A stretch of DNA of 64,000 bases from the NCBI RefSeq assembly GCF_032062105.1, contig NW_026941099.1, forward strand, positions 1-64,000, given 5' to 3'. Under the pieces are notes generated by a model, which was not told where the DNA came from, did no database searches, and saw nothing but the letters and a program-made list of their open reading frames with translations. Shown in pieces: positions 20,351 through 61,535 of the stretch. Position numbers and translations under genes: made by a program. This stretch comes from Saccostrea cucullata. Taxonomy: Eukaryota. Numbering within the stretch: position 1 is the first letter of the stretch; each line of letters starts with the position of its first letter.

Positions 20351-22345
20351 ATGACAAGATATTTTGCACTTGTTTGTCATCTGGTCTCCATCTGCATTCA
20401 AAGAGATGGCCACGGAGTGAACAGTTGTCAATTTGGGTAAGACTTTTATTTTCATTTTTTCAAATTGATTTAAATTTTCAAAAAAAAGTTTTATAAAAAG
20501 GCAGATTTTTAAACTTCGATTTTTTTAGGAGCAGACAGGATGGATCAGTTTATTGCTGTCATAATTATTTTAGAGATGGAAATGTCTGTAGAGGTTGTAT
20601 AGTATACATGATTATTTATTAAATTAATCTAAATTATTTTGTGTGAGAAATGATAAAAGTTATATGCAAAGTATACTGACACGCAAGAGAAACGCAACAA
20701 GCAGTAATCTACAAAGGTTTGAATTTTTTATCTAATGATTTTCAAAAAAGAATACAGTAAGGCTAAACTCACTTTTCAGAACATCAGGGATTTGATAAAG
20801 ATGTTAAATGATTATCTTTTAACTTTACTAAGTAACATATGACTGTTAAAACACCCCCTCCCAGCCATTCAATTACAACGTGCAAGACTATCCTAAACAG
20901 CAATTGCAGCTTAATTTTTACGATACAATAGGTTAATCAATATCGATATCTGAGGATAAGGAATTATTCTTTGCCATTTTTAAATGCCTGTTTTTGAGAT
21001 GATTAGGTCGAATTTTCTCTAACTTGGCGCATTGTAGTAACCCTTGGACTTCCGGTCCAAGGACTATCATTTATGCATATGATACATGAGACCCCTTTAA
21101 GGCATAATGCAGTGTATTTTTGCATCATCAACTCTCCATATCACCTTTACGTTGAGATTTTCCAGTTACTGCAATGGAAATGCTTACTTAAGCCATTTTC
21201 GAGAAGCCTTAGCATCGTAACGGGAAACAAAAGGAGATTTTATTTTTTGAAATATTGCTGTTTTACTAAAGATGAACAGTATAAACCCTTAAAACTCCCA
21301 TAATATTGCCAAATGTTTTGTTAAGCATGCAATTTTTGATTTCTGTTGAGCAGACTCAAACTTGACTTCCGGTTATGGTACGAAAATCGTTTAACCGTTA
21401 AATTATCGATATTTACCAAATTGAAGATATCCATAATTTTAAGATACAAAATTCTTTACTTTACATAATTATTTCCCTCAAAGTAGGGTGTTACGTTTCT
21501 TTTGCATGTCAGTATATATAATGTACAATGTATAAGATTTAAAGAGGTTCTTAAATGAAGACGTAGTTTACTTTTCAGAATGTCCACCTGGATACTTCGG
21601 ATTTAATTGTTCTCAAATTTGTCCTGAACTTTCTTATGGACACTTGTGTCGTCTGAAATGCAGTAACTGTACAAACTGTAATCACATATACGGCTGTACG
21701 CAATCAACAGGTAATCCTGTCAAATATTTGACATTTTCATTGAAAATTTATTGACATCACCTAATTACGTGAATTATCAATAAGTTTATTGAGAAATGTT
21801 TAAGTACTTATGCTGTTCATTTTAGTGAATATTGTTTCATATCATTAGAATATATTAAATTAGATGTCTCGAGAAAAAGAAGTTCTAGCACTAGACCTGC
21901 AAATGCTATCATGTCGTCCATGCCATCAATCGACATATCAGATGTACTTGAAAAAGAAAATTCCAGTGTAATATCTTTAAATGGTAATAAGACTCCTCCT
22001 GAATTTCATCTTAGAATAATTATCTATACAACCGGATCACTTATATCTTTTGTACTTATACTGATAATTGTTAGAGAAATAAGTAACTCTTCCAAAATAT
22101 TGTTTCCTCCCACAAATACAAACAAGCCACACAACAGTGGTGTCGTAGAAAACATATATTCAGAGGTTTCTGACGTCATTGATTGCGTCATTCCACATGA
22201 AGAAATTGCCTCATCTCTGTTAAACGTGTATTGTAATGATCAGGATGGAGTTTCCGAAAACTCAGAGGGTGGCTGTAAAGACTGTATTTATAGCACTGTG
22301 TTTAGAGAAAAGAAAGAGACTGCCAAACCAATATTATCTTTATAA
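20351..22345 (+). CDS. EGF/MEGF10-like single-pass receptor, copy 1 (tail truncated by a premature stop)
   Basis: Exons 20351-20436, 20574-20593, 21579-21710, 21849-22345 splice in frame: MTRYFALVCHLVSICIQ.., DGNVCR, ECPPGYFGFNCSQICPELSYGHLCRLKCSNCTNCNHIYGC, stalk, TM, NIYSEV, CIYSTV. CAA>TAA stop at 22343; decayed tail homology continues to ~22628. Confidence 0.75.
20674..21514. mobile_element. Tc1/mariner-type MITE in intron 2 of copy 1
   Basis: TIR TACTGACACGCAAGAGAAACGCAACA / TGTTACGTTTCTTTTGCATGTCAGTA with TA flanks. The empty site CAAAGTATATAATGTAC is present in copy 9 (~51421). Confidence 0.8.
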
Positions 22346-23879
22346 ACATCTAGGTTTCAGGCCGACAATACCGTAGACCTTTGTACTAATAAGGAGAAAA
22401 TAACATTTATAAATAATTGCCTTGACCAACAAAGTGAAGTTTATTTTCATCAAATCTCCACAAAGGAAACTAACAAGGAAATCTTTTCTCCTGAGTCTGT
22501 GCAGAGCTCCACAGAGTTTAACAAAAGGGAACTAGAGATAGCTGTGAGCGACTCCAGTCAGGATGCTTGTCCAACATTTGTCCAATTTGTATTGGTAAAT
22601 AAAACAACGGAAACATAATCTCTTTAATGACATATTTCCTTTAGATATTGACATTTCATTTAAAGTCTTTCTCTTTTTGTGAAATATATATGTTGTTTTT
22701 TCACCTATTTTATTATCATTTGAGTGTTGTAGAATGAACATTTCTCTCTAAATTGAAACCAGATATATTCGAAAATTCAAACAAAAAGCCAAAATTATTT
22801 ACATTTAAAGCTCTTTTTTCTCAATACATTTATCAAAGATCATTAAAATTCCTAAAAGTAAAACGAAAAATTCGCCGAGAGATCGATAGTCCTTATTTTG
22901 TCATACGACTGAAATGCGGTCTTCACCCTAATTTTTGATTAAAGGGTCAACTTGTTAAAAATGATTAATCAACACACAATAAAATATAACATGTAATTTG
23001 AAGGGAAAAAGTTTAGGTTTCGTGATTTTTTCTCAAAGCATGAGGTTTTACATAGGAATTTAATTTGTGCACATTTTTTTTTATAAATATTTTTTTTTAA
23101 TTCAAAGATAAAGATTTATATCTGTGTTTTTTAACTTAATATGTTTTTTTGTTATGAATTTTGGAAACAAACAGAGCTGATATGTTGCCTAGGATTGCGT
23201 GTAAGGTTTTTTTTCAAAGGTACGTAACAAATACGAGACGCATGTATGTGGGAGAAGTTCGCAGTCAAACTGCATGTGTTGTCTGTGGGCTTGATATAAA
23301 TCTTGGTAGATCAGTTTCTACTGGGATACATTTAAGTATTCCATAAAATATTCAATATTAAAAAAGGTCTTTTTTACACAAAAGTCCTTTAGACAAAAAA
23401 AAAAATTCATGGAACATGCACGTTTTTATTATGTAGAAATATTTTTGAAATTATAAGTTATGATTTTGATTTAGAACAAAAATAATTATGATATTAAAAA
23501 GCAAATTTAAAACTACGAGTTGTGGGGATTCTTTTTTGTTAACAAGAATGAATTAAATCCCACATGCCATTTTTATTATAAATACATTATCTACCCTCAA
23601 AAATTAACCCAAATTTTACGTATTTCATGGAGCTTGTCAGTCATCTTAGTATATTTCTATTGCAAAATGAATAGTATATGTTTTGTTTGCTTACTGTTGT
23701 CATGTTTTCTTATTTATTGATGTTCAAAGTATTCATAGAATCAATCTCCTTTGTGTTCTTAATAATAACTTGGCGCTGATTAAATATAAATGGATAAATA
23801 AAATGATACATGTAACAAGATCTTCAGAAACATTTCATAATTTCCTTAAAAATATTTTTTCTTGATAAATTCTAACAAG

Positions 23880-24138
23880 TCGTTTGATTGTTGTTAAAAT
23901 TCCCTCTCGAGATTTCCACTCATGATATAGAGACGCCACCACTCATATTTCCCGATTGAGAGCTGCAAACTTTAATCTCGACTCGGCACTAACGGCCATT
24001 GAGCATTAAGGCATTTTTTTCGTGCACGAACTTACTGCAACGAACGGTCTCCACGCCCCACAGTCAAACGCGAACACTCAACTCCTTACGTCGCAGCTCT
24101 AGAGCAGACAATCTAACAAAATGCACCATATGGGCGAC
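23880..24138 (-). mobile_element. tRNA-SINE (ancestral copy upstream of a receptor promoter)
   Basis: Reverse complement of the 11080 SINE family; same position in five array units. Confidence 0.75.
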
Positions 24139-24211
24139 GACAAGTTGTAAAAGGAAGTGAATCATAAATTTATATGAAACTTTAATCCTTTATGTGCAGG
24201 AAATTTTACTA

Positions 24212-59589: not shown

Positions 59590-59613
59590 TAATTATCGAT
59601 ATTTTCTCTTGCA

Positions 59614-59873
59614 GGTCGTTTATTGTCAAGATTCTGACTCATGATATTGAGACACTACCACTTGTATTTCCCGATTATGAGTTGCAAACCTTGTCCTTTA
59701 CATTGCACTTACGGCCATTGAGCGGTATCTGTAAGGGATCTTTTTTGTGCCAGCACTTACTGCGACGACCGTTCTTCACTTTCCATATTCGGATTTGAAC
59801 CCGCGAATTAAAGATCAACTTTGTACTCTGCAAGTCTAGAGCGACAATCTAACCAATGCTCCACGTTGGCGAC
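59614..59873 (-). mobile_element. tRNA-SINE (ancestral copy upstream of the copy 12 promoter, more diverged)
   Basis: Same position relative to ACAAGTTGTAAAAGGAAGT as the other four. Confidence 0.7.
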
Positions 59874-60014
59874 TACAAGTTGTAAAAGGAAGTAAATTAT
59901 TAATATACATTAAACTTTAATCCTTCATGTGCAGGAAATTTAACTATAAAAAGCTAATTGACATGCAAACTTAGCTATAGCATTGGAATTAAATGCATTT
60001 TTTTTAAATCAAGA

Positions 60015-61535
60015 ATGACAAGATATTTTGCACTGGTTTTTCATATAATCAACATTTGCACACAACGAAATGGCGTAAAAAGTTGTCGAAATACGTAAGT
60101 TTTTTGCATTAATTATTCAATTTATTCTAAATTTAAAATATTTTTTTCATATAAGGAGTAGTTCGAAGAGTATAAACTGGTATAATTTTAGGCTCGAGAA
60201 AAATGGATCAGAAGCGTGCTGTTTTAACTTTTACAGGGATGGGGATATCTGCAAAGGTTGTATGCAATGCTTGATTCACCTGATAAATTATTAAATCTGA
60301 ATTCATTTGCATAATATGCAACGTAACTAACGCTTTTATTGTGAAAATTGAAAAAACACTTCACACAATGTATGAGAAAACTTACTTAATTACTAGTCAA
60401 AATAAAGAAGCAATCTAATTTTCAGACTGTCCACCCGGATACTTCGGATCTAATTGCTCTCTTATTTGTCCTGAACCATATTATGGACACTTTTGTGGTC
60501 TAAAATGCAGAAACTGTACAATTTGTCATCACATATACGGCTGTACACAATCTACAGGTAATCTTGTGTTATATTTTACTTTCTCCATCAAAATTTTATT
60601 TTTATTAACAAAATTAGGATAAGATTAACACAATAACAATGTTTAGTACTTAAGTTGGTCATTTTAATTCAATATAATTTGTCTTTTTAGAGCAAATTAA
60701 ATCAGACGTCCTAAGAAAAGGAAGTTCTACTATTAGACCTGTAACTGCTATCAAGCCGTTCTTGCCTTCAAATAACACATCAGAAGTAATTGAAAGTTCC
60801 AGCATGGTATCTCTGTATGGTAACAAGACTCCTCCCAAGTCTAACCTTGCAATAATTATCTATACAACAGGATCACTAATATCTTTTCTTATTCTACTGA
60901 TAATTGTGAGAGAAATACTTAACTTTTACAAGTTATCAGTTTCTCCAACAAATGAAAAGAAGCCACACAACAGTGATGTCGAAGACAACATATATTCAGA
61001 AGTTTCTGACGTTATTGATTGCGTAATTTCACGTAGAGATATTACTTCCTCTATGTTCAACGTAAATAGTAATGAACAGGATGGCGTTTCCGAAATCTTA
61101 GAAGGTGACAGTAAAGACTGTACTTATAGCACTGTATTTAGAGAGAAAGAAGAGACTGGCGAACCGAAATTATCTTTACAAACATCTGGGTTAGAGGCGA
61201 GAAATTCCTTAGACTTATGTGCTAATAAGGAAAACATAACGTTTATAAATGATTGCCCTGACCAACATAATGAAATTAATTTGCATCAAATCTCCACAAA
61301 GGAAAGCAATGAAGAAATCATTTCTCCAGAGTCTTTGCAGAGCTCTACAGAATTTAAGGGAAGAAAAATAGAGATATCTATGAGCGACTCCAGTCAGGAT
61401 ACTAGACTGAGTCCAACATTTGTCCAATTAGTATTGGTAAATGAAACCACGGAGACAACACCTCGCAGCACTGTTAAGGCCTACTATGAGAAATCAACGG
61501 AAAATAGACGAGCAAAAAAAGGGGGACCTTTTTAA
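60015..61535 (+). CDS. EGF/MEGF10-like single-pass receptor, copy 12, open frame (358 aa) with a transposon-derived C-terminus
   Basis: Exons 60015-60094, 60237-60256, 60426-60557, 60691-61535 in frame: DCPPGYFGSNCSLICPEPYYGHFCGLKCRNCTICHHIYGC, TM, NIYSEV, CTYSTV. The last 23 aa are read from the inserted element. Confidence 0.85.

What the first reader, a model, noticed from the sequence alone, without database searches (positions are those of the whole stretch)
21849..61535. Graded series of signalling tails on a shared ectodomain
Seen: the tail has two ITIM-like YxxV/I motifs about 43 aa apart (NIYSEV and CIYSTV; the -2 residue is not strict ITIM) and a class-I PDZ-type end (T-S-L, T-P-L, T-P-F). 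Copies with open ectodomains differ. Copy 7 has both Tyr plus PDZ. Copy 10 has the first Y>F plus PDZ. Copy 12 has both Tyr and no PDZ. Copy 1 has both Tyr then a stop. Copy 9 has the first Tyr only. Copy 4 has neither canonical motif. In three copies the frame-disrupting lesions fall only after the TM. Inference: a paired inhibitory/decoy receptor repertoire. There is no charged TM residue, so no evidence for adaptor-coupled activating forms.
Basis: partly seen in the sequence, partly recalled or inferred. Interest (0 to 1): 0.7.

Follow-up and report, generated by a model that had tools for sequence, protein, structure and literature searches.

The report
Decaying oyster EGF-receptor gene array
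This oyster DNA holds twelve tandem copies (two fully intact) of a small cell-surface receptor gene whose tail carries two tyrosine motifs and a terminal anchor motif conserved in another oyster genus; the differing tails are likely mostly ordinary gene decay, a transposon insertion and allelic variation rather than a tuned series, though one shortened form just outside this stretch may have been kept by selection.

Summary
The window is Saccostrea cucullata. It holds 12 tandem units of a four-exon gene: signal peptide, one SCARF1/MEGF10/Tie-type EGF module, stalk, uncharged TM, ~185-aa tail. The two YxxV/I motifs (44 aa apart) and the T-x-L/F end are real and conserved in Ostrea edulis, but are not strict ITIMs. 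The 'graded series' mostly dissolves. Copy 12 lost its PDZ end to a 1,041-bp transposon in the penultimate codon. Copy 10's Y>F reads Tyr in spliced contigs from other animals. Copy 4's exon 2 is out of frame. T-P-F belongs to pseudogene copy 8. Window lesions fall in the tail at chance rate (14 of 26, target 52%). Copies 1 and 9 are truly tail-truncated, but no assignable transcript was found and dN/dS does not separate them from dead copies. Some support lies outside the window: two paralogs share two tail stops yet keep clean ectodomains, three share Y2>D, and other oysters have predicted tail-less and first-Tyr-only relatives. Verdict: birth-and-death array of a poorly studied mollusc receptor family; a decoy repertoire is possible, not shown. 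The scan noted a similar-sounding cluster on other DNA of this genome.

The parts
20351..22627 (+). Copy 1: exons 20351-20436, 20529-20593, 21579-21710, 21849-22627; ectodomain and TM open, 12 Cys, both Tyr, stop at 22343-22345, second stop 22616-22618; predicted 259 aa
   Evidence: RefSeq XP_062595823.1 fuses it to copy 2
27598..28889 (+). Copy 2: pseudogene (exon 1 absent, stops in exons 2-3, exon 3 donor lost, stalk frameshift, tail stop and frameshift)
30120..31156 (+). Copy 3: degenerate remnant
32168..33623 (+). Copy 4: exon 2 two bases short (stop 32364-32366), 1-nt deletion before first Tyr; Tyr codons and T-S-L still present in the ancestral frame
35717..37228 (+). Copy 5: pseudogene (exon 2 acceptor lost, stop and frameshift in exon 3, four tail lesions)
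39815..40956 (+). Copy 6: exon 1 and exon 4 fragments
41589..43049 (+). Copy 7: intact, 352 aa; NIYFEI 42570-42587, GIYSTV 42702-42719, T-S-L end
45854..47533 (+). Copy 8: pseudogene (24-nt deletion and stop in exon 2, stop in exon 3, tail stop 47165-47167); carries the T-P-F end
51119..52500 (+). Copy 9: ectodomain and TM open but one conserved Cys>Phe; frameshift after first Tyr, predicted 218 aa with 49-aa tail; further lesions downstream
54055..55554 (+). Copy 10: intact, 361 aa; first motif TTT (55087-55089) here, TAT in contigs of three runs; T-P-L end; spliced contigs seen
56251..57111 (+). Copy 11: degenerate remnant
60015..61535 (+). Copy 12: open, 373 aa, both Tyr; last 23 residues read from the transposon
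61464..62504 (.). 1,041-bp element with ~16-nt terminal inverted repeats and a 2-bp (CT) target duplication, inserted in the penultimate codon of copy 12
62505..62512 (+). Target duplication and displaced original end of copy 12 (restores T-P-L-stop), followed by a 3' region like that of copy 8

Best explanation
This is a tandem birth-and-death array of a small oyster type I membrane receptor gene (one EGF module, stalk, TM, tail with two conserved Tyr motifs and a PDZ-type end), and the tail differences among the window's copies are likely mostly decay and polymorphism rather than a selected series of signalling grades. Shown: the gene structure, the lesions, the transposon, splicing of copy 10, motif conservation to Ostrea. 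Inferred mechanism of the intact receptor: ligand binding or clustering by the EGF module leads to Src-type phosphorylation of the acidic-preceded first Tyr (D/E-N-I-Y-S-E-V) and of I-Y-S-T-V, which dock SH2 proteins (an SHP2-type phosphatase is the best guess for the second site), while the C-terminal T-x-L/F anchors it to a PDZ scaffold. Because stalk, TM and tail share the last exon, lesions there would escape nonsense-mediated decay (recalled rule) and could yield short-lived truncated proteins; most such copies are probably on the way to loss.
For: Only 2 of 12 window units are fully intact; 3 of 20 aligned copies genome-wide (7, 10, b5). Window lesions: 11 in exons 1-3, 1 stalk, 14 tail; tail share 54% vs 52% target. 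Copy 12 end: 40 of 40 scored candidates (of 2,413) are near-full-length copies of the element at 89-100% identity, two others checked show 2-bp target duplications. Position 55088 is A in all contigs laid there in 3 runs, including a 97% and a 98% match to copy 10, turning F to Y. Copy 4 exon 2 frameshift. Terminal-branch dN/dS of ectodomain+TM: tail-only window copies 0.46 (0.32-0.71), copies broken in exons 1-3 0.53 (0.35-0.82), intact 0.70 (0.46-1.21); neutral baseline 0.80-1.00: all classes were mostly under selection and lost function recently, with no separation. Copy 9 has lost a conserved Cys.
Against: Across all 16 scored broken copies lesions skew to the tail (40 of 60, P=0.014; 7 tail-only vs 3.4 expected, P=0.017), weakening to P=0.056 when a16/b3 are merged and pooled P=0.15 without a15. 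a16 and b3 share two tail stops, are dS 0.13 apart and keep all 12 Cys and clean ectodomain/TM. The a14/a18/b5 clade shares Y2>D and b5 is intact. Short-tailed relatives are predicted in other oysters. Copy 1's ectodomain is clean with dN/dS well below 1.
Confidence: 0.62

Rival explanations
1. Selected decoy/graded repertoire: truncation in the last exon repeatedly converts full receptors into first-Tyr-only, PDZ-less or secreted forms that share the ligand-binding ectodomain and are kept to tune signalling.
For: a16 (C23236) and b3 (C23224) share stops at reference codons 208 and 235; all 7 of their lesions lie after the TM (P=0.01; 5 post-split lesions P=0.037); dN 0.083 before vs 0.149 after the stop (P=0.017). 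Copy 9 independently truncates at codon 211. a15 has 10 lesions in exon 4 and none in exons 1-3; a15 and a18 would be secreted. Predicted relatives: tail-less 170-aa form in both M. gigas and C. angulata, forms ending just after the first Tyr in C. virginica and M. gigas, O. edulis forms lacking the PDZ end or second Tyr.
Against: Window placement is within chance. For a16/b3 the N:S ratio does not differ before and after the stop (P=0.64), and the pair was picked after looking. a16's first motif is itself hit by an insertion. Lesion share in exons 1-3 over all copies equals the target (27%). Other-species models were not checked against DNA or RNA.
Confidence: 0.27
2. A part of the single-base lesions are assembly errors or rare alleles of one animal, and several 'truncated' copies are intact in the species.
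For: Copy 10's F is Y in other animals. Copies 1, 4, a14, a18 differ from intact genes by one or two single-base events. The assembly has 23,869 contigs.
Against: Transposon insertions, multi-base deletions and stops shared between two contigs (a16/b3) cannot be base-call errors. No DNA reads were laid.
Confidence: 0.08
3. The receptor is an adhesion, scavenging or activating molecule, not an inhibitory immune receptor; the Tyr motifs serve adaptor docking or endocytic sorting.
For: No strict ITIM: -2 residue is N in 19 of 19 and C in 16 of 20. Only 31 of 167 YxxI/V/L motifs in relatives' tails fit the ITIM consensus. Nearest named relatives are SCARF1, Tie2 and MEGF10/Draper-type EGF proteins. 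This concerns function and is compatible with the best explanation.
Against: pY-S-T-V matches the core of the gp130 SHP2/SOCS3 site (PMC12849345, passages), and ITIM-phosphatase signalling is reported in oyster haemocytes (PMC11841013, passages).
Confidence: 0.35

Closest known systems
SCARF1 / MEGF10-Draper-CED-1 / PEAR1 / Tie-type EGF-repeat receptors
   Same: Type I protein; EGF module matches SCARF1 (8hna, E=2e-4), Tie2 (E=7e-9) and 6u11 (E=3e-14) by family profile; EGF_PEAR1L weakly in 6 of 87 members; some relatives are named MEGF10-like or SCARF1-like in RefSeq; Tyr-motif tail.
   Different: About one and a half EGF modules instead of many; no full EMI domain hit, no NPxY, no ITAM; fold matches weak (best Z 3.2, rmsd 3.8, 46 aligned; no Foldseek hit at E<=0.001). 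Draper makes its inhibitory form by splicing (PMC8092387, passages), not by paralog truncation.
Unnamed mollusc miniature EGF receptor family (RefSeq 'uncharacterized', e.g. O. edulis XP_056000570.1, XP_056001705.1)
   Same: Same architecture, TM, both Tyr motifs and C-terminal decapeptide; 197 representatives at E<=0.001; mollusc-only Atlas clusters at 0.94-0.95.
   Different: This Saccostrea array is a local expansion (60-85% between copies) with most copies broken; RefSeq models fuse copies 1+2 and 10+12.
Botryllus fester co-receptors (FcoR) and Hydractinia Alr genes
   Same: Invertebrate tandem receptor families with birth-and-death turnover and tails that vary in Tyr motifs, including non-ITIM 'core' YxxI/L/V motifs (PMC12065747; 10.1101/2022.03.25.485889; passages).
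   Different: Those are Ig-type, carry canonical ITIM/ITAM/hemITAM motifs, and have genetic evidence for allorecognition; none of that is present here.
Oyster ITIM receptors CgNCAM1 and CgIgIT2
   Same: Oyster type I receptors with two tail Tyr motifs (PMC11841013, passages; CgIgIT2 seen only as a citation in PMC11999971).
   Different: Ig/FN3 ectodomains and tested phosphatase binding; unrelated ectodomain here and no functional data.

Membership tests
ITIM inhibitory receptor | S/I/V/L-x-Y-x-x-I/V/L motif (consensus as in 10.1101/2022.03.25.485889) | tested here: not met
   -2 is N in 19 of 19 (first motif) and C/G/Y in 19 of 20 with one stop (second)
ITIM inhibitory receptor | Phospho-dependent binding of SHP/SHIP phosphatase and inhibition | not testable with these tools
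   needs pull-down and cell assay
Paired activating/inhibitory receptor family | Activating partner with same ectodomain and charged TM residue or ITAM | tested here: not met
   No charged TM residue in 20 aligned copies; Tyr spacing 44 aa vs 6-12 for ITAM
Paired activating/inhibitory receptor family | Shared ectodomain among clustered paralogs with different tails | tested here: inconclusive
   Cluster and shared module present, but most tail differences are lesions; heritable Y2>D only in a14/a18/b5
Decoy receptor | Truncated form is expressed | tested here: inconclusive
   No contig assignable to copy 1, 4 or 9 in three runs; a blank in contigs is not evidence
Decoy receptor | Ectodomain stays under constraint after truncation | tested here: inconclusive
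   dN/dS does not separate classes; a16/b3 suggestive
MEGF10/Draper/CED-1 | EMI domain plus many EGF repeats | tested here: not met
   78-residue module only; no Pfam family on the copies
MEGF10/Draper/CED-1 | NPxY and ITAM/YxxL tail motifs | tested here: not met
   No NPxY or ITAM in the aligned tails
SCARF1/Tie/PEAR1-type EGF module | Cys pattern and fold of the EGF repeat | tested here: met
   Profile hits; model pLDDT 84; top fold rows SCARF1 and Tie2 but weak
Class I PDZ ligand | S/T-x-hydrophobic C-terminus (recalled consensus) | tested here: met
   T at -2 in 17 of 20, L/F at the end in 19 of 20; T-Y-L/F in three O. edulis relatives. Binding not tested.
Non-autonomous TIR DNA transposon | Terminal inverted repeats, target duplication, dispersed copies | tested here: met
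   superfamily not assigned

The most novel reading that the evidence does not exclude
Oysters run a large, undescribed repertoire of one-EGF receptors in which a single last exon carrying stalk, TM and tail is repeatedly cut short, turning full two-Tyr/PDZ receptors into first-Tyr-only, tail-less or secreted decoys that selection then keeps; this array catches the process in action (a16/b3 fixed, copies 1 and 9 in transit).
Probability: 0.25. Interest if true: 0.6.

Novelty: new member of a known kind. Interest (0 to 1): 0.3.

Why it matters
If the best reading holds, this is an ordinary decaying gene cluster, useful mainly for fixing RefSeq's fused models and for naming three conserved tail motifs in an unstudied oyster receptor family. 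If the decoy reading holds, it would give molluscs a simple genetic route (last-exon truncation) to signalling and non-signalling versions of one receptor, testable with existing oyster population and RNA data.

Tried and rejected
No RNA holder on record was listed for 51100-55600; three guessed-RNA runs with shares 0.06-0.08 were laid. Copies 1, 4 and 9: no assignable contig (best pieces 94% over 163 nt and 94 nt, compatible with paralogs); copy 7: only 86% pieces. These blanks are not evidence. Pfam found nothing on the copies. Word-index protein searches found only the array's own RefSeq models; the exhaustive search found the family. Fold searches gave only weak EGF/TNFR-like rows. C23224 as the allelic haplotype: rejected as untestable and unlikely, best long matches 82-86%. 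Region differences in stop or homopolymer opportunity do not favour the tail. dN/dS as a discriminator failed. Branch rates come from pairwise distances fitted to the tree, not from ancestral states. Literature searches listed no paper on this family or array; only listings were seen for most, subscription papers are not covered, and no supplements were read. No complex prediction was run. Sequence search of earlier findings was blank.
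Full report
Source and anatomy. The window is bases 1-64000 of G000 contig C23236. RefSeq proteins identical to its copies are labelled Saccostrea cucullata. Exon searches find 12 units on the + strand between 20.3 and 62.5 kb. Each has four exons: a signal-peptide-like exon, a 65-nt Cys-Cys exon, a 132-nt EGF exon, and one last exon with stalk, TM and tail. The array continues to about 101.5 kb (a13-a18) and related arrays lie on C23224 (b1-b5) and C6733 (d1). 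I aligned 20 copies; degenerate remnants (window copies 3, 6, 11; b2, d2, the C19531 piece) were left out.

What the protein is. No Pfam family matches the copies. An exhaustive search gave 197 representatives at E<=0.001; 20 looked up are Ostrea, Saccostrea, Crassostrea/Magallana or unnamed, mostly 'uncharacterized', some MEGF10-, Tie2- or SCARF1-like. A profile of 87 members matches EGF repeats of 6u11, Tie2 and SCARF1. The 78-residue model is confident (pLDDT 84) but fold matches are weak. So it works like a miniature EGF-repeat receptor and fails membership of MEGF10/Draper.

The tail motifs are real. First Tyr is kept in 19 of 20 copies, second in 14 of 20, terminal L/F in 19 of 20. O. 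edulis relatives keep I/T/V-Y-T/I-E-I, V-Y-S-T-V and an end in T-E-S-T-Y-L/F, with motif columns about three times as identical as the rest of the tail (the motif columns were chosen by me). In 56 relatives with a TM and tail, 167 of 345 Tyr have I/V/L at +3 against 18% background, but only 31 fit the ITIM consensus. Here the -2 residue is N or C, so these are 'core' motifs in the sense used for Botryllus FcoR (PMC12065747, passages), not ITIMs. Y-S-T-V equals the core of the gp130 SHP2/SOCS3 site but lacks its V/L at -2 (PMC12849345, passages). The sign of the signal is therefore unknown.

The graded series, copy by copy. Copy 7 is intact. Copy 10 is intact and spliced in other animals: joints 54130>54216 (X3) and 54585>54742 (X1) match introns 1 and 3. 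At 55088 every contig laid in the three runs (two each) has A, including pieces with 13 differences in 499 and 4 in 220, which turns the F codon into Y; the runs are only guessed to be RNA and may be a sister lineage. Copy 12 ends in a 1,041-bp element with inverted repeats and a CT duplication; behind it lie the original last codon and stop, so the ancestral end was T-P-L. The element has at least 39 other near-full-length copies at 89-96%. A 98% contig covers copy 12's tail up to 61350 and does not reach the insertion. Copy 4 has a frameshifted exon 2. Copy 8, the only T-P-F, has two ectodomain stops. That leaves copies 1 and 9 as real tail truncations; copy 9 also lost a conserved Cys.

Is lesion placement more than chance? 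Lesions were counted by hand from the projected alignment. Window: 14 of 26 in the tail (target 52%), tail-only 3 of 7 vs 1.35, P=0.11. All 16 broken copies: 40 of 60, P=0.014; 7 of 16 vs 3.4, P=0.017. Merging the related pair a16/b3 gives P=0.056, and dropping a15 gives pooled P=0.15. The deficit is in stalk and TM (4 of 60 vs 21%), not in exons 1-3 (27% vs 27%). dN/dS on terminal branches is 0.5-0.9 in every class with overlapping intervals against a neutral baseline of 0.8-1.0, so most copies were functional for most of their history and the test cannot tell a kept decoy from a recent death.

a16 and b3 form a 100% clade, share two tail stops, differ by dS 0.13, and keep all Cys, splice sites and frame up to the TM; the product would carry the first Tyr only, like copy 9. 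dN is lower before than after the stop (P=0.017) but so is dS, and the N:S test is flat (P=0.64). The a14/a18/b5 clade shares Y2>D, and b5 is intact. Predicted proteins of other oysters include tail-less, first-Tyr-terminal and PDZ-less forms; these are gene models I did not verify.

Verdict. Observation partly confirmed; interpretation partly supported. Most likely a birth-and-death array of a two-Tyr, PDZ-ended miniature EGF receptor whose window 'grades' are chiefly decay, a transposon and an allele (0.62). A selected decoy repertoire remains open (about 0.25). The NMD-escape rule, the class I PDZ consensus and the Src-substrate reading of the first motif are recalled, not tested. I found no paper on the family in nine searches. 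An earlier scan note (e1-9505311) describes a similar-sounding cluster elsewhere in this genome; I did not check that it is the same family.

Noticed in passing
window 2320-3279 +: 319-aa ORF with a B-box zinc finger (Pfam zf-B_box, E=6e-14), TRIM-like without RING.
   Followed up: partly
window 3295-4342 +: ORF pieces with IDFGTT and WVLTVP motifs that recall HSP70-12-like proteins (recalled; Pfam gave nothing on the first piece).
   Followed up: no
window 24513-26665 +: Broken reverse-transcriptase-like ORFs (LINE-like, by recalled motifs) between copies 1 and 2, where copy 2's exon 1 is missing.
   Followed up: no
window 20594-21578: Intron 2 of copy 1 is 985 nt vs about 140-350 in other copies and is covered by many repeat contigs: likely another insertion.
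   Followed up: partly
G000:C23236:91202-91410, 93134-94116; C23224:106787-107213: Further insertions in exon 4 of a16 (about 208 nt, TA-flanked with short inverted ends), a17 (about 986 nt) and b4 (about 437 nt).
   Followed up: partly
G000:C23236:75370-77713 and 100094-101552: a15 and a18 keep exons 1-3 intact and frameshift in the stalk, so they would encode secreted EGF modules.
   Followed up: partly
G000:C23236 89-102 kb vs C23224 100-121 kb: The two arrays are collinear (a16-a17-a18 vs b3-b4-b5) at 82-86% identity including a flank: an old segmental duplication or very diverged haplotype.
   Followed up: partly
RefSeq XP_062595823.1 and XP_062595824.1: Both models fuse neighbouring copies (1+2, 10+12) by splicing around stops; copies 7 and 9 have no model in the searches run.
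   Followed up: partly
window 13646-14110 +: 154-aa ORF with hydrophobic segments and a DVYADI motif, possibly an exon of another receptor-like gene; no Pfam hit.
   Followed up: no
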